The notes beneath the pieces were generated by a model that ran no database searches, was not told the DNA's origin, and was given only the letters and a program-made list of their open reading frames with translations. From NCBI RefSeq assembly GCF_000010625.1, contig NC_010296.1, forward strand, positions 3,870,001 through 3,902,000: a stretch of 32,000 bases of DNA. The letters run 5' to 3'. Of the stretch, positions 5,826 through 14,093 are shown one piece after another. The first letter of the stretch is position 1, and every line of letters begins with the position of its first letter. Both the position numbers and the translations under genes were made by a program. Origin of the DNA: Microcystis aeruginosa NIES-843 (GTDB taxonomy: Bacteria; Cyanobacteriota; Cyanobacteriia; Cyanobacteriales; Microcystaceae).

Positions 5826-7271
5826 TTAATAGTGACGTGGAGTATAAACCCATTGCTTGGTTTTACCCTGCTCAATCAGGCGAGTTTTACTCGATCCAAT
5901 CAAAATTATGGTTCGCATATCCGCATCTTTAATAGTCATATCCTCTAGGAATTTCACCGTCACTGTTTCCCCTTTTCGCCCTAAATTACGCGCTAGTACC
6001 ACAGGAGTTTGCGGCGAGCGCCATTGTAATAAAATCTCTTTTGCCTTCTCCAATTGCCAAGTGCGCTCTTGAGACACAGGATTATAAAATGCGATCGCTA
6101 AATCGGCTCGGGCCGCTAACTCAATGCGCTGAGAAATCACCTGCCAAGATTTGAGAATATCCGATAGGGAAATCGCACAAAAATCATGTCCTAAAAGTGC
6201 GCCAACCCTGGCGGCCGCCGCTTGCATCGCCGAAATCCCCGGACAGACCTGAATGGCGATCGCATCCCATGCTGGTTTTGCTTTTTTTTCTAATACCTCA
6301 AACACGGCCGCGGCCATGGCATAAATTCCGGGATCTCCGGAAGAAACTAAGACAACCGATCGCCCCTTAGCCGCTAAATCTAGGGCCATTTCCGCGCGAT
6401 CAAGTTCCACCCGATTATCCGATTCATGGCGGACAATTTCTGGTTTTCGCAGGGATTCTACCAAATCCAAATAGGTTTTATAACCCACCCAATCCGTGGC
6501 TTTTTCCAATACTTCTCGAACTTCCGGCGACATCCAATTTAGCGCACCCGGTCCAGTTCCGACTATGGCTAATTTACCTTGACTTTCCTGGGCAAAATCC
6601 CCTGGGGACAAACTGGATTTTTCCTTAATTTGCTGGCTTTCCTCATACAGATAAACTAAACAGGCAGTGCTAGGTTTTGCCAAGTTTAAGTTATTTTTAT
6701 CGATAATCTCAATGCTCAGTTTTGCTGCTGATGAAATCGGTAAATTACTATTTTTTAACCAGTCTGCTTCACCAATTAATTTTACTTTTTCACCCGCCAA
6801 TAAATCGGCAAGAAACTTCTTAGCATCATCGGGATTAACTAACTGATAACCCGGGGGTGGCGATAATAAAGTCGTTTTAAATCTAATATCACCAGTGGTG
6901 GTAATTGCGGGGGAAATTTGCCAAACCGAGGCAATTTGACGAGCGAGATCATTAACCCCTTGTAAACCCCCCAACAAAGGCACTACGGCGCTGCCATCTT
7001 CTGCGATTGCTAATACAGGTGGTTCTTGCCATTTATTAGTTAATAAAGGTGCTAAAGTGCGAATTAAAATACCCGCCGCACAAATGCCAATAATTGGCGT
7101 TCCCGTCTGGAAAAATTCTCGCACCGTTTCGCCAAAATTAGTATAGGTAAAATCAGCCGAATGGGTACGATCTATTAACCCATAAATTATTGCTTCCGGT
7201 AGGGCCATTTGCACTTGACGAGCAACGGGGAGGCTGGTTTCTCCTAAAATGAGAATAGCTGGAGGTTTCAT
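5826..7271 (-). CDS. cobJ: bifunctional CbiG (cobalt-precorrin-5A hydrolase) / precorrin-3B C17-methyltransferase (CobJ/CbiH)
   Basis: The N-terminal half is CbiG-like (GICAAGILIR, AVVPLLGG). The C-terminal half is a tetrapyrrole methylase (KLAIVGTGPGALNWMSPEV...VGYKTYLDL...VSSGDPGIYAMA). Confidence 0.9.
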   Translation of the reverse strand: MKPPAILILGETSLPVARQVQMALPEAIIYGLIDRTHSADFTYTNFGETVREFFQTGTPIIGICAAGILIRTLAPLLTNKWQEPPVLAIAEDGSAVVPLLGGLQGVNDLARQIASVWQISPAITTTGDIRFKTTLLSPPPGYQLVNPDDAKKFLADLLAGEKVKLIGEADWLKNSNLPISSAAKLSIEIIDKNNLNLAKPSTACLVYLYEESQQIKEKSSLSPGDFAQESQGKLAIVGTGPGALNWMSPEVREVLEKATDWVGYKTYLDLVESLRKPEIVRHESDNRVELDRAEMALDLAAKGRSVVLVSSGDPGIYAMAAAVFEVLEKKAKPAWDAIAIQVCPGISAMQAAAARVGALLGHDFCAISLSDILKSWQVISQRIELAARADLAIAFYNPVSQERTWQLEKAKEILLQWRSPQTPVVLARNLGRKGETVTVKFLEDMTIKDADMRTIILIGSSKTRLIEQGKTKQWVYTPRHY

Positions 7272-7996
7272 TTGGCTTCCCCTGACTGCGCTGCAGTTAA
7301 CTTTTGGATAAATTCTTGATGCTCTACCGAGTTAATTCCAGCCTTTAAGATGTCCAACACCCGTGACATATTGCCGTTGAGCATGGCTGAAATATCTAAC
7401 CACAAACCCGGAAATACTAGAGAGCAAATCACCCCTTCTTGGTTGGGTAACAAAGAAATATAATCGCCATTTTCTAAACTAAACCAATCAATCTTTTGAT
7501 CAAATACCTGCCAAATAAGGTATTCTTGAATGCCACTGCGACGATAAGCACGTTTTTTATCCCCTAAATCTATGGCGGCACTACTAGCGGCAATTTCTAC
7601 CACTAATTCCGGCGCTCCTTCTAGGTATCCCTCTACAGTTAGGGTTGATTTTCCCCCGCTTTCTTGACTGATTAATAACACCCCATCCGGCTGTAGTTCG
7701 TTGTCGATATCCAAGCGAACTGTTGGCTCAATACCCATTTGTACTTGGGGTGTAGCAGCTTGATAAACTCCCAACCAAGTGATTAAACGTCCGTGGGGTT
7801 CAGCATGAAATTTAAACCTTAATGGGGATGCCATATATACAACTCCTTCGATCAGTTCGGCTTTTTTTAATCCTGGCATAGCTTGATAACGGCGCTCGAA
7901 TTCAGGACGAATTAAGCGATCCCCATTTTCTAACGGGGGTAAATGTTGAGTGGTTACAATCTGAGAAGTTAAGGATTTAACCGGAGAAGAAGTCAT
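7268..7996 (-). CDS. Uma2-family (DUF820) putative endonuclease
   Basis: APELVVEIAASS...DLGDKKRAYRRSGIQEYLIWQV is the Uma2 core. The preferred start is ATG 7996 (MTSSPVK); the track ORF extends to 8134. The stop overlaps the cobJ start (ATGA at 7268-7271). Confidence 0.8.
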   Translation of the reverse strand: MTSSPVKSLTSQIVTTQHLPPLENGDRLIRPEFERRYQAMPGLKKAELIEGVVYMASPLRFKFHAEPHGRLITWLGVYQAATPQVQMGIEPTVRLDIDNELQPDGVLLISQESGGKSTLTVEGYLEGAPELVVEIAASSAAIDLGDKKRAYRRSGIQEYLIWQVFDQKIDWFSLENGDYISLLPNQEGVICSLVFPGLWLDISAMLNGNMSRVLDILKAGINSVEHQEFIQKLTAAQSGEAK

Positions 7997-8160
7997 GGTG
8001 GCAGTCTTTGGGAACAAAACAGCATTGATTTTATTATAGATTGTTTCATTGGACTTCTTGAGGGATTTAATTTTTAACTGAAATTTCGCCAGAAGTCCTG
8101 AGCTTTTAGCGATGGGATGAATGGCAACCAACATATAGACAATTCCCCAAAACTATAGCA

Positions 8161-9241: not shown

Positions 9242-9673
9242 ATGACGGCATCCTATGAGCAAGACTTTGGACTTTGGGCCGAACAAATGGCCGATTTATT
9301 AGCTTCCGGTCGGTTTTCCGAGTTAGATATTGAGAATTTAGTCGAAGAGGTGCGGGATTTGTCGAAACGGGAGCGCGATCGCTTACTCGCTAGTCTAAGA
9401 TTAATTTTGCATCATTTATTAAAGTGGGACTATCAACCTCAACGGCGATCCAGGGGTTGGTTGGGAACTATTCAGGGAGAAAAAGCTAATATTAGGCTTT
9501 ATTTGGACGATAGCCCCAGTTTAAAGCGATATTTAACCGATGAAAGCCTATTTAAACTCTATGCTGTTGCTTGTTGCGATGCCTTTAGAGAGACGGGATT
9601 AGAGTTTCCCCCAGTTTGTCCCTACGGTATTGAGGATATTTTAAATCGTTCTCTTCATTTGTCGGAACGATAG
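9242..9673 (+). CDS. DUF29 domain protein
   Basis: YEQDFGLWAEQMADLLASGRFSELDIENLVEEV...HLLKWDYQPQRRSRGW is the characteristic DUF29 N-terminal pattern. ATG 9242 is preceded by GGAG. Confidence 0.85.
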   Translation: MTASYEQDFGLWAEQMADLLASGRFSELDIENLVEEVRDLSKRERDRLLASLRLILHHLLKWDYQPQRRSRGWLGTIQGEKANIRLYLDDSPSLKRYLTDESLFKLYAVACCDAFRETGLEFPPVCPYGIEDILNRSLHLSER

Positions 9674-9746
9674 ACGAATCTCCTCACCTAACGGAAGATT
9701 TTTGATTTTTGCAAGAGATCTATTTTGGTTCGTTGGACGCACCCTT

Positions 9747-11948
9747 CTACTCTGTCTGAACAAAAGTAGAGGTTATGAACACAATAACTGTAAGACTTAT
9801 TAAGATTAATGTTCCGACAACCAGATCCGATTGTGGCTTAAAATGGTTAAGGCTGAAAAGTCGGTCAATTCCGATTAGTACCCAAGATAAAACTAAGAAA
9901 CCGAAAATAAACTCTGCTAATCTTTCACTTAGTGGCTGGACAATATAATTCCATTCCTCTTCAAGTGTCCTACCTGTAGATAAAGCACCGTAAAACATGA
10001 ATACAAGGTAAGAAATTATTAATGTAGTAAAAGTCACCAAAGAAATCCAGGGATAAGTTCCAGATATCCGAATCAACGCTAGGTTAGCAAGGATATTTAC
10101 ACTTAATGCCCAAATGATTAACAGAATCCACTCCAAGTAGTATCGTCTTAAATTTGACTCCACAGATAAGACTATCTCGGCTAAAACACCATATATTAAT
10201 TTGCTTAGTGGAGCAAGACTATAAAAGATAGACACGATGAACATGATTGGAATCACCGCAACAATAAAGGTAAGCCAAAAAGTAACATAATGCAGCGAAC
10301 AGAACAGGAATACTACAAAAAAACGTAGGCTCACAACTACCATACGGATAGTGAGCAGAATTGTCCTAAGTGAAACATCAGCTAATGCGTTGGATAACAA
10401 GAGAATAGGATTACGAGATCCGTTTGCTACTGAATATTCTCTCCATGTAAACATCAGGATATTTTCGACTATTGGTTCAAGCACAACTCCTAGGGAAAAA
10501 ACGTAATAAAATGGCGATAAGACTGTGTTTTCAATTGTATCCTTGGCAAACGCACCAATTCCCTCAATTACAGATACGAGGGTGGTTTCCTTTAAGCATC
10601 GGTCAATTAAGTGACATATCATTACAACAATATAAAAGACTAAACTTCCTATTAAACAATAAACAATTAATGGGATAGGAATCCACTGTTTAGCAACAAA
10701 GGCAATTAAGACCTGAAGTGAGATAATAAATAAGAATCTAATTGTGTCCCTAGATGCTTTTAAGGTAATTTCCCGAATCTGGACTGGAATTTTAAAAGTG
10801 GGACAATGATTTATGAAATCGATAAGTTTACGGAGTAACAAAATATGCTCTTGATTTTTCTTGTTGGCCTTTATTAGCATATTTTCTACTAAGAGGCGAA
10901 ATTGACTATCGTTGTAATTAAAAAAGTAATTTGAAAAACTTTCAAGCTTGGGATTTGTTCGTCTCAACGACTTTCTTAAAGTATCTACAAATTCAGAATA
11001 ATGAGGTGTTTTATCCGCGTAAGTGCGAGCTAAACTTTTTAAGTCCTCAACAAAATGAGTAAACCCCAATTCATAATTATTGTCCTGCTCAAATATTTTT
11101 AACACAAGAAAATCTACTTCTGTTGTTGACATATCGGTTATTTCTCTGCGTATTTCTTCTTTTGCTTTCCATATCTCTTCATCTATTGCCCGTAGCTCTT
11201 GCTGTAATCGTCGCTCGGTCTCATAGTATTCATAAGAACGACCTGAAGAATAACTTGCTATTCTCAGCTTTGACAATTCTTGCTCTTTCTCTTTTTTATA
11301 ATTTGATTTGGGTAAAGCATCTAATTTACTTTGTTCAATAACTAATCGATAATAACGATCTTCCACTGACTTTTGCATCCTGTCTATTTTATCTGGAAGT
11401 AATTGCCATTCTTTATATTCTTCACGAATTTGTTTAATCCGCTCCTCGGTAAAGTATTTTCGGATATATTCTTCTTTGTTATATCGTTGTTGATAATCAT
11501 AATTGATAAATCCCCAAGCAGCGCACCATAAAATCAGTAAAAACAAGGGAGTTAACTCATTTGATCCATGTTGGATGACTTTCTCAAATAAATAGTCACC
11601 AGCAATAGCAACTACACTGGCAATGATAATTCTAGTAGGGGTTAAATCTTTAAATTTTGGATTCAATAAAAGTAGAAAAAGAATTACAATACATGATCTG
11701 ATCACAAACTGATTCGCTTGCAGGAAAGCAAGAAAAGTAAATATTAGGGAAGGTAGGGAAGTTGAAGACTGGCTAAAATAAGAGCTAGTAAACCTAACTC
11801 CTGTTAATAAATATAAAACGAATAAGCATAGAAACAGCGCGCAGATAGTAAAGGGAAAACGATGTCCATAGAAATGGAATTCGATATCACGAGCGATGTC
11901 GCTTTTATCTTTAGATGTCGTATCCATGTTTCTTTTTTTGTTGCCCAT
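9747..11948 (-). CDS. orphan 733-aa polytopic membrane protein with central charged coiled-coil region
   Basis: Uninterrupted 2.2-kb ORF. ATG 11948 is preceded by AGGAGG. By eye there are ~5 N-terminal hydrophobic helices, a ~240-aa K/E/R-rich region and ~9-10 C-terminal helices. The DNA is AT-rich and no HIP1 was found. Confidence 0.8.
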   Translation of the reverse strand: MGNKKRNMDTTSKDKSDIARDIEFHFYGHRFPFTICALFLCLFVLYLLTGVRFTSSYFSQSSTSLPSLIFTFLAFLQANQFVIRSCIVILFLLLLNPKFKDLTPTRIIIASVVAIAGDYLFEKVIQHGSNELTPLFLLILWCAAWGFINYDYQQRYNKEEYIRKYFTEERIKQIREEYKEWQLLPDKIDRMQKSVEDRYYRLVIEQSKLDALPKSNYKKEKEQELSKLRIASYSSGRSYEYYETERRLQQELRAIDEEIWKAKEEIRREITDMSTTEVDFLVLKIFEQDNNYELGFTHFVEDLKSLARTYADKTPHYSEFVDTLRKSLRRTNPKLESFSNYFFNYNDSQFRLLVENMLIKANKKNQEHILLLRKLIDFINHCPTFKIPVQIREITLKASRDTIRFLFIISLQVLIAFVAKQWIPIPLIVYCLIGSLVFYIVVMICHLIDRCLKETTLVSVIEGIGAFAKDTIENTVLSPFYYVFSLGVVLEPIVENILMFTWREYSVANGSRNPILLLSNALADVSLRTILLTIRMVVVSLRFFVVFLFCSLHYVTFWLTFIVAVIPIMFIVSIFYSLAPLSKLIYGVLAEIVLSVESNLRRYYLEWILLIIWALSVNILANLALIRISGTYPWISLVTFTTLIISYLVFMFYGALSTGRTLEEEWNYIVQPLSERLAEFIFGFLVLSWVLIGIDRLFSLNHFKPQSDLVVGTLILISLTVIVFITSTFVQTE

Positions 11949-12044
11949 CTCTCCTCCTGAAAACTGGACTGAACACAATAGTCTCGTGAATCAAATGTAG
12001 CACTGCTTTAGAAAACTGTTAGGCTTATCATCTACAACCCTAAG

Positions 12045-12153
12045 TCAATGGGTGCTGGGTAAATTATACTTGATCGCATTCGGATCTCGATGACCGATCA
12101 ACGCCCGTAAAGCCTCATCATCCTCACGGTGCTTTAGAACATAGTGCGAACAC
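12045..12153 (-). pseudogene. possible RelE/ParE-type toxin C-terminal remnant
   Basis: The minus-strand frame reads ...HYVLKHREDDEALRALIGHRDPNAIKYNLPSTH*. The IGHR..(x)Y tail resembles RelE/ParE C-termini. The upstream part is replaced by a MITE-3 terminal fragment at 12163-12174. The call is weak. Confidence 0.25.
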
Positions 12154-12311
12154 CTGATCTGGTAGGGTGTGTGTAGGTTAGCAAATAAGTGAGATCTGAT
12201 TGCCAACTATTGATATCTCAACAGCTGCTAACTTACAAGGCTTTTCGAGGGGTTAGGAGTCGGTCTTCAGTATTCAGGACTCAGTATTCAGATGCGGGTT
12301 TTCAGATTTTT

Positions 12312-12426
12312 TAGGGTGCGTTAGGTGGCCACCAATTCTGTTAAAAAAACAAAATCAATAATCCGCACCCGACGCAGCAAATTTATTGTTAAATTGGTGC
12401 ATTATGCTTTCGCACTTCACACCCTA
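12312..12426 (+). mobile_element. MITE family 3, left copy (~115 bp)
   Basis: TAGGGTGCG...CCAATTCTGTTAAAAAAACAAAATCAATAATCCGC...GCAGCAAATTTATTGTTAAATTGGTG...CACACCCTA. It aligns along its full length with 13104-13218. Confidence 0.8.
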
Positions 12427-12531: not shown

Positions 12532-12756
12532 ATGAGTTACCAAAACATTATTACCATTGAACCTGGAAAACGAAGCGGAAAACCCTGCATTCGAGGAATG
12601 CGTATAACTGTGTACGATATTCTAGAATATTTAGCAGCAGGAATGACAGAAGCAGAAATTCTTGAGGATTTTTCAGAATTAACTTCCGAGGATATCAAAG
12701 CTTGTTTGGCTTTTGCTGCTGATCGAGAGAAAAAATTATTTATCACCTCTTTATGA
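12532..12756 (+). CDS. DUF433 domain protein (antitoxin-like partner)
   Basis: GKRSGKPCIRGMRITVYDILEYLAAGMTEAEILEDFSELTSEDIKACLAFAA is the DUF433 signature. It overlaps the next gene by 4 nt (ATGA). Confidence 0.85.
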   Translation: MSYQNIITIEPGKRSGKPCIRGMRITVYDILEYLAAGMTEAEILEDFSELTSEDIKACLAFAADREKKLFITSL

Positions 12757-13085
12757 AACTGTTATTAGATGAAAATTTGTCAGATCGGATTATTGATAAA
12801 ATAATTGATTTATATTCTGATTCCCAGCACGTCAAGACTTTAGGGCTGATCAATACTGATGATGCACTTATCTGGGAATTTGCCAAATTCAACGATTTTG
12901 TAATTGTCTCTAAAGATGCCGATTTTCATCAGCGCAGTCTATTATATGGTCATCCACCAAAATTTATCTATCTTCGTATTGGTAATAGTCCCACTGCAAA
13001 GATTATCGAAATTTTAAGAGGTTATTTTTTAATTATTGTTGAATTTTTTGATAGTGAAACAGAAAGTCTGTTGATATTAGGTTGA
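12753..13085 (+). CDS. DUF5615 family PIN-like protein (toxin-like partner)
   Basis: The MKLLLDENLS start and VIVSKDADF motif are typical of DUF5615. It is translationally coupled to the DUF433 gene. Confidence 0.8.
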   Translation: MKLLLDENLSDRIIDKIIDLYSDSQHVKTLGLINTDDALIWEFAKFNDFVIVSKDADFHQRSLLYGHPPKFIYLRIGNSPTAKIIEILRGYFLIIVEFFDSETESLLILG

Positions 13086-13103
13086 GTGCGATCGCTGATC
13101 TGG

Positions 13104-13218
13104 TAGGGTGTGTGTTTGCGGCTACCAATTCTGTTAAAAAACCAAAATCAATAATCCGCTCCCCACGCAGCAAATTTATTATTAAATTGGTGTGTTACGC
13201 TATCGCTAACACACCCTA
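13104..13218 (+). mobile_element. MITE family 3, right copy
   Basis: TAGGGTGTGTGT...CACACCCTA termini (TIR GTAGGGTGTGT). It starts 18 nt after the DUF5615 stop. Confidence 0.8.
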
Positions 13219-13320: not shown

Positions 13321-13399
13321 CACTGCGTTTAATTTTCCAACCTATGCTTTTTAATGCTTTTAAAACTTGTTTGGCTTTCGTTGCTGACCATTGACTCAT
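13301..13399 (-). pseudogene. hicA: hicA toxin gene, truncated after ~27 native codons
   Basis: MSQWSATKAKQVLKALKSIGWKIKRSG matches the HicA/YcfA N-terminus (KA..L..L...GW...R..GSH...). The frame then reads into the TIR element and stops (LFQLK*). The ATG overlaps the hicB stop (ATGA). Confidence 0.7.
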
Positions 13400-13602
13400 A
13401 GAGCAACAAATGATAAATTTAGGTGATTTTCTGGAAGTTCTCCCTGTTCAAGTTGATCGGCTAAGACACGCAAGGCAAGTGCTTGAACTTTAGCAATAGC
13501 TTCCTGTTGACTATTGCCATAGACTAAAACTCCCGGAAGTTCGACGATTTCAGCAATATATTGTCCATCTTCTTCTTGTTCTATGTCAATCTTATAATTC
13601 AT
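13396..13602 (-). CDS. hicB: HicB-family antitoxin (short UPF0150-type)
   Basis: MNYKIDIEQEEDGQYIAEIVELPGVLVYGNSQQEAIAKVQ is the HicB N-domain pattern. ATG 13602 is preferred over the track start at 13695. Confidence 0.8.
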   Translation of the reverse strand: MNYKIDIEQEEDGQYIAEIVELPGVLVYGNSQQEAIAKVQALALRVLADQLEQGELPENHLNLSFVAL

Positions 13603-13705
13603 TTGAGAATTACCTATGGGATGACCTGCTGTCTTGATTATATTAGATTTTATAGCCGCTCTTGTCGGTTGGATTGACCCAAGTAAACCCAACACACATT
13701 AGATA

Positions 13706-13917
13706 GGGTTTGCCGAAAAAGCTTTTCGTGGGGGCAGGGTGTGGGGTGTGGGGTGTGGGGTGTGGGGTTTTACCAGTTTTGAGGTGGTCAACTACCTAAT
13801 TTTCAGGGAAAAAGTACCTGAATTTTCCCCCGATCCCCGCAATGGCTGGCACTTTTTGAGGGGAAAAAAGTCCAAAAGTCTTATCCAACAAGGTTTTTAG
13901 ATTTATTCAGCAGACCC
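13706..13917 (-). mobile_element. MITE family 1, copy 3
   Basis: GGGTTTGCCGAAAAAGC ... ATTTATTCAGCAGACCC, with TA at 13704-13705 and 13918-13919. The (GGGGTGT) block is at 13730-13767. Confidence 0.85.
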
Positions 13918-13923
13918 TAGATA

Positions 13924-14093
13924 GGGTTTGCCGAAAAAGCTTTTCGTGGGGTTAGGAGTCGGTCCGGATGAAAAAATTTTCACCCCCACAGATGAAAGAG
14001 GTTTCTTTTCCCACTTCCCCACTTCCCCACTTCCCCACTTCCCCACTTCCCCACTTCCCCAATCCCCTATACCTTTTAAAGAGGATTTAGTAT
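13924..14093 (-). mobile_element. chimeric MITE (family-1 terminus at one end, family-2 terminus at the other) carrying an octamer array
   Basis: It starts GGGTTTGCCGAAAAAGCTTTTCGTGGGG, identical to the copy-3 terminus, after TA 13922-13923. It ends ...CCCCTATACCTTTTAAAGAGGATTTAGTAT, the reverse complement of the type-B family-2 left end (compare 25033-25060). Confidence 0.6.
14014..14061. repeat. tandem octamer (CTTCCCCA)x6
   Basis: Six perfect consecutive units counted directly in the sequence. Confidence 0.95.

What the first reader, a model, noticed from the sequence alone, without database searches (positions are those of the whole stretch)
9747..11978. AT-rich, HIP1-free orphan gene for a 733-aa membrane/coiled-coil protein inside an addiction-module and MITE island
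This is the longest ORF in the window (ATG 11948, preceded by AGGAGG), and I cannot place it in any family.

Architecture, read by eye from the translation:
- About 5 hydrophobic helices in residues ~40-165.
- A ~240-residue K/E/R-rich segment with heptad-like runs (EEYIRKYFTEERIKQIREEYKEWQ, RRLQQELRAIDEEIWKAKEEIRREI).
- About 9-10 further hydrophobic helices running to the C-terminus.

The DNA is visibly more AT-rich than its neighbours. One hand-counted line, 10861-10920, has 19 G+C of 60. I found no GCGATCGC (HIP1) in its 2.2 kb, although HIP1 occurs in most flanking core genes. Both observations suggest recent acquisition.

The gene is convergent with a DUF29 gene. On its other side lie a possible RelE remnant, an intact DUF433/DUF5615 pair, a hicB with a broken hicA, and stacked MITEs. 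That is the kind of neighbourhood where defence or addiction cargo accumulates. It does not match any named defence effector I know, so it is a candidate for something new rather than an assignable function.
Basis: partly seen in the sequence, partly recalled or inferred. Interest (0 to 1): 0.7.

Follow-up and report, generated by a model that had tools for sequence, protein, structure and literature searches.

The report
Orphan membrane protein in variable hotspot
This is a real, strain-variable gene of Microcystis aeruginosa for a large membrane protein with no detectable relatives outside a few bloom-forming cyanobacteria; other strains carry a NACHT immune-type gene at the same site, so it is a reasonable but unproven candidate for a new membrane-acting defence gene.

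Summary
The ORF (9747-11948, minus strand, 733 aa) is real and is under purifying selection between subfamilies. It is an integral membrane protein: 4-5 N-terminal TM helices, a charged helical middle of about 250 aa, and a strongly conserved C-terminal domain of about 10 TM helices.

Pfam, NCBIfam, PADLOC, PHROGs, PDB sequence search and an exhaustive HMMER scan of 1.84 billion proteins find no relatives outside its own small family. That family occurs in Microcystis, Dolichospermum, Sphaerospermopsis and two unidentified hosts. Structure models were too poor to use.

The window is M. aeruginosa NIES-843. The gene, with a DUF6887 remnant, forms a 2.6-kb replaceable cassette (about 9679-12305) between a DUF29 gene and a MITE/DUF433-DUF5615 pair. 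Other strains carry an NNH2-NACHT gene or other small cargo at the same junctions.

Homologs sit in other toxin-antitoxin-rich islands. In Dolichospermum (two contigs) they lie next to xisC inside the hupL excision element. One copy at 36% GC is embedded in DNA of about 60% GC.

"Accessory and horizontally mobile" is therefore well supported, mainly by this comparative evidence. Within this window the HIP1 argument is not significant and the GC argument is modest. Function is unproven. My best guess (about 0.35) is a stand-alone membrane-acting phage-defence or exclusion protein.

The parts
9747..11948 (-). CDS of the 733-aa orphan polytopic membrane protein (stop codon 9747-9749). The protein is identical to BAG04033.1 / UniProt B0JS75 of M. 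aeruginosa NIES-843.
   Evidence: ORF list; exact-sequence look-up; dN/dS 0.2-0.36 in the TM domains against divergent homologs.
11953..11958 (-). AGGAGG Shine-Dalgarno-like motif, 4 nt upstream of ATG 11948.
   Evidence: Read directly from the sequence.
11499..11858 (-). N-terminal membrane domain, residues about 31-150, with 4-5 hydrophobic helices. It follows a K/R-rich N-terminal tail.
   Evidence: Kyte-Doolittle profiles on the single sequence and on the alignment.
10749..11498 (-). Central charged helical domain, residues about 151-400, probably cytoplasmic. It evolves fast, is rich in indels, and is largely missing in Dolichospermum homologs (545-565 aa) and in P0009 (596 aa).
   Evidence: 48 K+R and 45 D+E in residues 148-404; helical at pLDDT 70-86; dN/dS 0.5-0.77; alignments.
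9750..10748 (-). C-terminal membrane domain, residues about 401-733, with about 9-11 hydrophobic helices. It is the most conserved part and carries invariant motifs (IREITLKASRDT just upstream, RNP, ExxLSxESNxRR, SGTY, LIGIDR).
   Evidence: Alignments A1, A2 and A4; hydropathy.
12045..12206 (-). Truncated remnant of a DUF6887 small gene upstream on the same strand. Positions 12052-12144 are 90% identical in DNA to the intact DUF6887 gene that precedes the 60%-identity homolog in L002.
   Evidence: Pfam DUF6887, E = 9e-8; blastn and alignment; an intact 73-75-aa DUF6887 gene precedes the second-subfamily gene on the 8 contigs whose upstream sequence is held (L002; L014-L017, L019 and two contigs without DNA).
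12063..12090 (-). Promoter-like site (TCGAGA-16-TATAAT, 10 of 12 matches) about 115 nt upstream of the ATG, inside the DUF6887 remnant.
   Evidence: Consensus scan only; the number of sites in the region does not exceed shuffled controls.
9679..12305 (.). The replaceable cassette: gene plus DUF6887 remnant. In other Microcystis genomes exactly this segment is replaced by other cargo.
   Evidence: Homology with L005, L035-L043 stops at 9678 or 9693 and resumes at 12302 or 12306; gene content of the alternative states.
9242..9673 (+). DUF29 gene, the conserved left flank of the hotspot, convergent with the membrane-protein gene.
   Evidence: Pfam DUF29, E = 1e-40; synteny.
12306..12413 (.). MITE-like repeat at the right border of the cassette. 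A second copy lies at 13094-13218.
   Evidence: Repeat family D2; blastn junctions.
12532..13085 (+). DUF433/DUF5615 two-gene (toxin-antitoxin-like) module, the conserved right flank of the hotspot.
   Evidence: Pfam; synteny.

Best explanation
Shown:
- The gene is the cargo of a 2.6-kb replaceable cassette in a chromosomal hotspot of Microcystis aeruginosa, between a DUF29 gene and a MITE/DUF433-DUF5615 module.
- It encodes a polytopic inner-membrane protein of a tiny orphan family that moves horizontally among freshwater bloom-forming cyanobacteria.
- In Dolichospermum (L012, L034, L045) the family rides inside the xisC/hupL excision element. A Sphaerospermopsis contig (L011) has an integrase-family gene fragment immediately upstream.

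Inferred (function and mechanism):
- It most likely acts alone as a membrane-acting conflict protein, that is, anti-phage abortive infection or superinfection exclusion.
- The conserved C-terminal domain of about 10 TM helices, with the N-terminal 4-TM bundle, would be the effector. It would either open or perturb the cytoplasmic membrane, or block DNA entry.
- The fast-evolving cytoplasmic helical domain would modulate or sense.
For: Accessory and replaceable:
- At identical junctions (window 9678/9693 and 12302/12306), seven Microcystis contigs carry a 971-1092-aa NNH2-NACHT STAND gene. Others carry small ORFs or a HemolysinCabind gene. One lineage carries a frameshifted copy of this gene.

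Mobile:
- A second subfamily (about 60% identity) sits at a different locus among BrnT/A-like, PhdYeFM/YoeB, ParE-like and DUF433/DUF5615 modules. On the 8 contigs whose upstream sequence is held, an intact DUF6887 gene comes first.
- Dolichospermum homologs lie directly downstream of xisC inside the hupL element. Junction repeats CACAGCAGTTATATGG and CATAGCAGTTATATGG are present. These elements are packed with toxin-antitoxin and restriction-modification genes.
- In L004 the gene keeps 36% GC inside flanks of 53-70% GC, next to an AAA_16-TPR STAND gene.

Real, selected protein:
- dN/dS is 0.2-0.36 in the TM domains and 0.5-0.77 in the middle domain.
- Ten contigs carry the identical intact allele.

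Membrane protein without an enzymatic domain or conserved partner.

Variable, mosaic alleles: pN/pS is about 0.6-1.5 among Microcystis alleles, as is common for conflict genes.
Against: - There is no functional evidence of any kind.
- There is no hit to any PADLOC model, and the family is absent from phage, plasmid and IMG/VR collections.
- Toxin-antitoxin-rich hotspots also carry non-defence cargo; HemolysinCabind and small ORFs occupy the same site.
- Proteins with 14-15 TM helices are more typical of transporters or envelope enzymes than of known Abi effectors.
- The supposed sensor domain is almost absent in Dolichospermum homologs, so it cannot be essential.
- A within-population pN/pS near 1 and decayed copies also fit relaxed constraint.
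- The AlphaFold models were unusable (pLDDT 53-55), so no fold supports a pore or channel.
Confidence: 0.35

Rival explanations
1. It is an accessory membrane transporter, channel or envelope-biogenesis protein (for example an exporter or a polysaccharide-handling protein). It would confer an ecological trait unrelated to phage defence and merely hitch-hike in mobile islands.
For: - It has 14-15 predicted TM helices with conserved charged or polar motifs at the helix ends.
- The layout 'TM bundle, large cytoplasmic helical domain, TM bundle' recalls FUSC/ArAE-type exporters (from my own knowledge).
- The family is restricted to co-occurring bloom formers.
- Glycosyltransferase genes lie a few kb away in the same region.
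Against: - There is no Pfam or NCBIfam hit to any transporter or glycosyltransferase family, even at E up to 5, across nine family members.
- No internal duplication was found by hhalign.
- No conserved partner genes or substrate-pathway genes accompany it.
- Every context seen is toxin-antitoxin, restriction-modification, STAND or integrase genes.
Confidence: 0.27
2. It is the toxic or addictive component of a two-gene module with the small upstream DUF6887 protein, that is, a membrane toxin with a small antitoxin or regulator that stabilises the island or element.
For: - In the second subfamily an intact 73-75-aa DUF6887 gene lies about 150-220 bp upstream on the same strand, on all 8 contigs whose upstream sequence is held.
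- The window keeps a remnant of the same gene and the same intergenic DNA.
- Elsewhere DUF6888 and DUF6887 occur as overlapping, toxin-antitoxin-like gene pairs.
Against: - In NIES-843 and all cluster-1 contigs DUF6887 is truncated, yet the large gene stays intact.
- Nostocales homologs have no DUF6887 gene; they follow an integrase gene (xisC in L012 and L034) directly.
- At 733 aa the protein is far larger than known membrane toxins.
- DUF6887 is normally paired with DUF6888, so the linkage may be mere shared ancestry of the cassette.
Confidence: 0.1
3. In NIES-843 the gene is a functionless passenger on its way to decay.
For: - pN/pS is 0.6-1.5 among Microcystis alleles.
- L013 holds a multiply frameshifted copy.
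- In NIES-3804 the product is annotated as only 652 aa, beginning at the position of V82.
- The upstream DUF6887 gene is degraded.
Against: - A 733-codon ORF is intact in DNA of 35% GC.
- An identical allele occurs in at least 10 independent contigs.
- There is clear purifying selection between subfamilies and across orders.
Confidence: 0.1
4. It is an OmpH/Skp-family outer-membrane or periplasmic chaperone, as the RefSeq product name says.
For: Only the name given by the source: 'MULTISPECIES: OmpH family outer membrane protein'. The K/E-rich helical middle region could give a spurious low-complexity match.
Against: - There is no OmpH hit in Pfam (E up to 5) or in NCBIfam.
- The protein is 733 aa with about 14 hydrophobic helices and no signal peptide-like start. 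Skp-type proteins are soluble periplasmic proteins of about 170 aa (from my own knowledge).
- The region in question is the least conserved part and is dispensable in homologs.
Confidence: 0.01

Closest known systems
Cargo of chromosomal or prophage defence hotspots, that is, variable slots between conserved flanks as described for P2/P4 hotspots (PMC9122126). The NNH2-NACHT STAND genes that occupy this same slot in other Microcystis strains are one such cargo.
   Same: A discrete cassette between fixed junctions, with alternative occupants across strains. One occupant class (NACHT STAND NTPases) belongs to a recognised immune superfamily. Toxin-antitoxin modules flank the slot.
   Different: The slot is not in a recognisable prophage or satellite. 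Other occupants (HemolysinCabind, small ORFs) are not obviously defensive. Neither this protein nor the local NACHT protein convincingly matches a PADLOC model.
Membrane-acting abortive-infection or exclusion proteins (for example lambda RexB, T4 Imm, P22 SieA) and Zorya ZorA (a TM domain plus a long helical tail). These are named from my own knowledge.
   Same: An integral membrane protein without an enzymatic domain, carried on mobile or variable DNA. Like ZorA, it combines TM helices with a long charged helical region.
   Different: There is no sequence similarity (PADLOC: 0 hits). It is far larger, with about 14 TM helices in two blocks. It has no partner genes such as RexA or ZorBCD. The helical region lies between two TM blocks rather than forming a C-terminal tail.
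FUSC/ArAE-type (YccS/AaeB-like) inner-membrane proteins, named from my own knowledge.
   Same: The overall layout: an N-terminal TM bundle, a large cytoplasmic helical domain, then a C-terminal TM bundle, in a protein of about 700 aa.
   Different: There is no Pfam FUSC, FUSC_2 or ALMT hit. There is no internal duplication between the N- and C-terminal TM blocks. The TM counts are unequal (4-5 against about 10).
Cargo genes of the heterocyst hupL excision element (xisC element) of Nostocales (PMC4874684, PMC3610870).
   Same: Dolichospermum homologs (L012, L034) lie immediately downstream of xisC, between the 16-bp hupL junction repeats. L045 holds a partial copy in the same element.
   Different: The window's copy is in a unicellular, non-heterocystous Microcystis with no integrase nearby. 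No homolog turned up outside Microcystis, Dolichospermum, Sphaerospermopsis and two unidentified hosts in the exhaustive search, so none was found in, for example, Anabaena PCC 7120.

Membership tests
OmpH/Skp family (the RefSeq product name for this exact protein) | Match to the OmpH/Skp profile (Pfam PF03938 or an NCBIfam equivalent). | tested here: not met
   No OmpH hit in Pfam at E up to 5 for nine family members, and none in NCBIfam at E up to 1.
OmpH/Skp family (the RefSeq product name for this exact protein) | A small (about 170 aa) secreted soluble protein. | tested here: not met
   The protein is 733 aa with about 14 hydrophobic helices and a K/R-rich N-terminus followed by a TM helix.
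Any named anti-phage defence system (PADLOC-DB v2) | A profile match to a component of a known or candidate system. | tested here: not met
   0 families at E up to 1.
Any curated protein family or solved structure | A significant sequence-profile or fold match. | tested here: not met
   - Pfam, NCBIfam and PHROGs gave only noise.
- PDB hmmsearch gave a best E of 0.068, to coiled-coil proteins.
- Foldseek against PDB gave a best E of 0.18 and TM-score about 0.1, on a low-confidence model.
- Exhaustive phmmer against 1.84 billion representatives found family members only.
- Profile searches gave the same result.
Variable cargo of a genomic (defence-type) hotspot | The same flanking genes and junctions across strains, with different inserted genes. 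| tested here: met
   Junctions lie at window 9678/9693 and 12302/12306. There are four occupancy states, including NNH2-NACHT.
Variable cargo of a genomic (defence-type) hotspot | The cargo demonstrably protects against phage. | not testable with these tools
   This needs phage-challenge experiments.
hupL-element (xisC) cargo | Located between the hupL junction repeats, next to xisC. | tested here: not met
   Met for the homologs in L012 and L034, and for the partial copy in L045. Not met for the window's gene, which has no integrase or hupL nearby.
Toxin-antitoxin-like pair with DUF6887 | A conserved, intact adjacent small partner gene. | tested here: inconclusive
   The partner is intact in the second subfamily, on all 8 contigs whose upstream sequence is held. 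It is truncated in the window and in all cluster-1 contigs. It is absent in Nostocales.

The most novel reading that the evidence does not exclude
The gene founds a previously unrecognised family of single-gene, membrane-embedded anti-phage or exclusion proteins. In this reading two TM blocks are joined by a rapidly diversifying cytoplasmic helical domain. The family is traded between Microcystis and Nostocales bloom formers, is interchangeable with NACHT immune genes at a chromosomal hotspot, and is carried in Dolichospermum by the developmentally excised hupL element.
Probability: 0.3. Interest if true: 0.7.

Novelty: new variant of a known kind. Interest (0 to 1): 0.45.

Why it matters
Microcystis blooms are shaped by cyanophage pressure, and Microcystis genomes are unusually rich in defence and toxin-antitoxin genes. 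Few cyanobacterial-specific systems have been defined.

This gene is a cleanly delimited candidate. It is a single gene with no known domain, it is allelic with a NACHT gene at a hotspot, and it is shared by horizontal transfer among the main freshwater bloom genera.

If it proves protective, it would add a new membrane-effector family. It would also provide a marker for strain-level phage susceptibility, and it would show that heterocyst excision elements serve as carriers of defence cargo.

If it proves to be a transporter or envelope protein, it would still be a new membrane-protein fold family that marks inter-genus gene flow in blooms.

Tried and rejected
Searches that found no family or fold:
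- Pfam, NCBIfam, PADLOC and PHROGs scans of the protein and of nine family members returned nothing but noise.
- The exhaustive phmmer scan and two profile searches (full length; C-terminal domain only at E up to 10) returned family members only.
- PDB profile search returned only weak coiled-coil matches such as ATP synthase subunit b.

Structure prediction:
- AlphaFold2 on the full protein gave pLDDT 55. On the C-terminal domain alone it gave pLDDT 53. With only about 12 similar sequences the alignment is too shallow.
- Foldseek on the full model gave no match with E below 0.1 and TM-scores near 0.1, so I disregard it.

Other negative results:
- A search for internal repeats between TM blocks with hhalign found none.
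- Phage, plasmid and IMG/VR searches found no match.
- Literature searches for accession numbers, guessed locus tags and DUF6887/DUF6888 returned no papers.

Arguments I do not rely on:
- The HIP1-absence argument for this window alone, because 9 sites in 32 kb make it uninformative.
- GC3 as a unique outlier, because three other ORFs in the window are as low or lower.

Not pursued or unresolved:
- Whether the 'hypothetical protein conserved in five hupL elements' of PMC4874684 is this family. The supplement gives locus tags only.
- The host of the second subfamily (L002, L014). It shares no Microcystis repeats with my Microcystis loci.
Full report
**1. The observation**

The window contains an uninterrupted minus-strand ORF at 9747..11978. 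It is 743 aa from TTG, or 733 aa from ATG 11948, which is preceded by AGGAGG at 11953-11958. It is the longest ORF in the window.

Hydropathy analysis of the single sequence and of the family alignment gives three regions:
- 4-5 hydrophobic helices in residues 31-150.
- A highly charged segment at 148-404, with 48 K+R and 45 D+E. AlphaFold models it as helices at pLDDT 70-86.
- About 9-11 hydrophobic helices from residue 401 to the C-terminus.

The K/R-rich N-terminus and the very basic middle segment suggest that both are cytoplasmic; this rests on the positive-inside rule and is inference.

**2. The compositional arguments**

- Gene GC is 0.346 against 0.418 for the rest of the window. That is the lowest of 20 ORFs of at least 150 aa.
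- Its GC3 (0.311) is matched or undercut by three other ORFs (0.277-0.308), with two more close above it at 0.325 and 0.330. Part of the AT-richness simply reflects an I/L/F/K/N-rich membrane protein (GC2 0.317).
- HIP1 (GCGATCGC) occurs only 9 times in the 32 kb. Gaps between sites run 2.7-5.9 kb, and the gene lies in a 3.7-kb gap. A HIP1-free 2.2 kb is therefore unremarkable here.
- Across homolog loci the pattern repeats: 0 sites in the gene against 12 in 5.2 kb, 19 in 11.5 kb and 10 in 7.5 kb of flanking DNA (L002, L014, L034). Pooled, the depletion looks real.

**3. Is it a real gene and what family?**

Against divergent homologs, Nei-Gojobori dN/dS is 0.2-0.36 in both TM domains and 0.5-0.77 in the middle domain. 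The gene is therefore protein-coding and under selection, with a fast-evolving centre.

Nothing known matches it:
- Pfam, NCBIfam, PADLOC and PHROGs give no credible hit for it or for eight relatives.
- A PDB profile search gives only weak coiled-coil noise.
- An exhaustive phmmer scan of 1.84 billion cluster representatives finds just 10 proteins, all at least 47% identical family members or fragments.
- Profile searches add only more fragments.
- No internal duplication is detectable.
- AlphaFold2 models are poor (pLDDT 55 for the full protein, 53 for the C-terminal domain). The Foldseek result is correspondingly meaningless.

The exact protein is BAG04033.1 / UniProt B0JS75 of Microcystis aeruginosa NIES-843. 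RefSeq calls it 'OmpH family outer membrane protein'. No test here supports that name.

Named family members come from Microcystis, Sphaerospermopsis kisseleviana and Dolichospermum spp.. The C-terminal TM domain is by far the most conserved part, with invariant motifs such as ExxLSxESNxRR, SGTY and LIGIDR. The middle domain has many indels and is nearly absent in the 545-565-aa Dolichospermum forms and in the 596-aa P0009.

**4. Genomic context in Microcystis: a replaceable cassette in a hotspot**

Close relatives of the window (L001, L020-L023, L030, L033) share the arrangement CbiG/methylase - Uma2 - 235-aa gene - DUF29 | membrane gene - DUF6887 remnant | DUF433-DUF5615.

In other Microcystis genomes, homology with the window stops at 9678 (or 9693) and resumes at 12302/12306. 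The intervening segment holds one of the following:
- A 971-1092-aa NNH2-NACHT STAND gene (L005, L035, L036, L038, L039, L040, L042).
- Two small ORFs (L037).
- A 140-aa ORF plus a HemolysinCabind protein (L041, L043).

L013 carries the same cassette at 92% nucleotide identity, but with the gene shattered by frameshifts.

The 2.6-kb segment at about 9679-12305 is thus a discrete, strain-variable cassette. Its right border is a MITE-like repeat: 12327-12413 matches 13120-13206.

**5. Context elsewhere**

- **Second subfamily.** It is about 60% identical, its hosts are unidentified HIP1-rich cyanobacteria, and its contigs show about 40% GC outside the gene. It lies at a different locus among BrnT/A-like, PhdYeFM/YoeB, ParE-like and DUF433/DUF5615 modules. 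On the 8 contigs whose upstream sequence is held, an intact 73-75-aa DUF6887 gene lies about 150-220 bp upstream.
- **Shared upstream DNA.** It is 90% identical in DNA to the L002 copy, and the intergenic DNA is also alignable. The ancestral mobile unit therefore included DUF6887 plus the large gene.
- **Dolichospermum.** The homolog lies directly downstream of xisC inside the hupL excision element.
  - L012 shows the 3' hupL fragment, the repeat CATAGCAGTTATATGG, xisC, then the homolog.
  - L034 shows the end of xisC, the homolog, VapBC-like pairs, and the repeat CACAGCAGTTATATGG at the end of the 5' hupL fragment.
  - PMC3610870 gives these sequences as the hupL-element repeats.
  - In D. 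flos-aquae CP051206 a partial copy sits in the same element, together with EcoRI restriction-modification, PemK, PIN, ParE-like, DUF433/DUF5615 and Uma2 genes.
- **Sphaerospermopsis.** On contig L011 the homolog follows an integrase-family gene fragment; no hupL sequence is held for that contig.
- **L004.** The gene keeps 36% GC while its flanks are 53-70% GC, and it is followed by an AAA_16-TPR STAND-type gene. Two independent metagenomes show this arrangement.
- **Mobile-element collections.** No copy occurs in phage, plasmid or IMG/VR collections.

Together these results demonstrate repeated horizontal movement, which the GC and HIP1 arguments only hinted at.

**6. How it most likely works**

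Shown: it is a stand-alone polytopic membrane protein without a recognisable enzymatic domain or conserved partner. It is carried as variable cargo in islands dominated by toxin-antitoxin, restriction-modification and STAND genes. It is interchangeable with a NACHT gene at one hotspot. Its membrane core is conserved and its cytoplasmic middle evolves fast. Among Microcystis alleles the sequence is mosaic, with pN/pS about 0.6-1.5 and variable blocks at residues 325-348 and 525-558.

Inferred: it is a membrane-acting conflict protein for abortive infection or superinfection exclusion. The TM domains would be the effector and the helical domain a modulator or sensor. I put this at about 0.35.

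Evidence against this reading:
- There is no functional data and no PADLOC similarity.
- A count of 14-15 TM helices is more typical of transporters.
- The middle domain is dispensable in some homologs.
- The signs of relaxed constraint and decay fit a non-functional gene equally well.

Rivals:
- An accessory transporter or envelope protein unrelated to defence (about 0.27).
- A toxin-antitoxin-like module with DUF6887 (about 0.1). This is weakened because DUF6887 is truncated here and absent in Nostocales.
- A decaying passenger (about 0.1).
- The RefSeq OmpH label (about 0.01).

**7. Comparison with known systems and novelty**

By sequence the family is new: it has no Pfam, NCBIfam or PADLOC family and no solved relative. 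By genomic behaviour it fits a known kind, namely variable cargo of defence/toxin-antitoxin hotspots and integrative elements. I therefore rate it 'new variant of a known kind'.

The more novel reading, a new single-gene membrane defence family shared among bloom-forming genera, remains open at about 0.3.

Interest is moderate at 0.45. It is a well-delimited, testable candidate with an unusual cross-order distribution and a link to hupL elements, but it has no mechanistic or phenotypic evidence yet.

Noticed in passing
L012:7145-11638; L034:26-8910; L045:10001-16218: In Dolichospermum the homologs are cargo of the developmentally excised hupL element. They lie directly downstream of xisC, between the 16-bp junction repeats CATAGCAGTTATATGG and CACAGCAGTTATATGG. 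These elements are loaded with toxin-antitoxin, restriction-modification, Uma2 and PIN genes, so they look like defence/addiction islands.
   Followed up: yes
L004:600-2450 against its flanks: A homolog at 36% GC is embedded in flanks of 53-70% GC and is followed by an AAA_16-TPR STAND-type gene. Two independent metagenomes show this arrangement. It suggests very recent transfer into an unidentified high-GC host; a chimeric assembly is not fully excluded.
   Followed up: partly
window 9679-12305 against L005:5880-9348, L035-L043: The same chromosomal slot holds NNH2-NACHT STAND genes of four different lengths (971, 978, 1070 and 1092 aa) in other Microcystis strains, or HemolysinCabind and small ORFs. 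The NACHT proteins do not convincingly match PADLOC models.
   Followed up: partly
L013:600-2900: Another Microcystis lineage carries a copy of the gene with multiple frameshifts (92% nucleotide identity) at the same hotspot. The NIES-3804 product is annotated as only 652 aa, beginning at the position of V82.
   Followed up: partly
window 9747-11948 (database annotation): RefSeq names this exact protein 'MULTISPECIES: OmpH family outer membrane protein'. No OmpH/Skp profile matches it, so the name looks like a low-complexity artefact from the K/E-rich helical region.
   Followed up: yes
L002:3771-4258 and L002:4435-4813; window 12045-12206: DUF6888 and DUF6887 small genes occur as overlapping pairs, arranged like toxin-antitoxin operons. 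A DUF6887 copy accompanies the membrane gene at two different loci. I found no literature on either DUF.
   Followed up: partly
window 13999-14075: A tandem array of about nine copies of the octamer TTCCCCAC.
   Followed up: no
window 12327-12413 and 13120-13206; also 12237-12265, 13718-13746 and 13936-13964; 13690-13738 and 13908-13956: Several short dispersed MITE-like repeat families are stacked between the cassette and the DPBB_1 gene. One of them forms the right junction of the hotspot.
   Followed up: partly
window 7268-8134 (-): The Uma2-family protein next to the hotspot matches PADLOC candidate-system models PDC-S03 (E = 5e-15) and PDC-S17.
   Followed up: no
window 13396-13695 (-): The supposed hicB reaches only sub-threshold HicB_lk_antitox/UPF0150 scores (E 0.006-0.03). 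It is conserved next to a 32-aa ORF in several strains.
   Followed up: partly
protein residues 325-348 and 525-558 (window about 10905-10976 and 10275-10376): Microcystis alleles are mosaics of two haplotype blocks. The block at 539-558 swaps hydrophobic residues for charged ones (V/V/F against E/E/R) in a segment that hydropathy alone would call transmembrane.
   Followed up: partly
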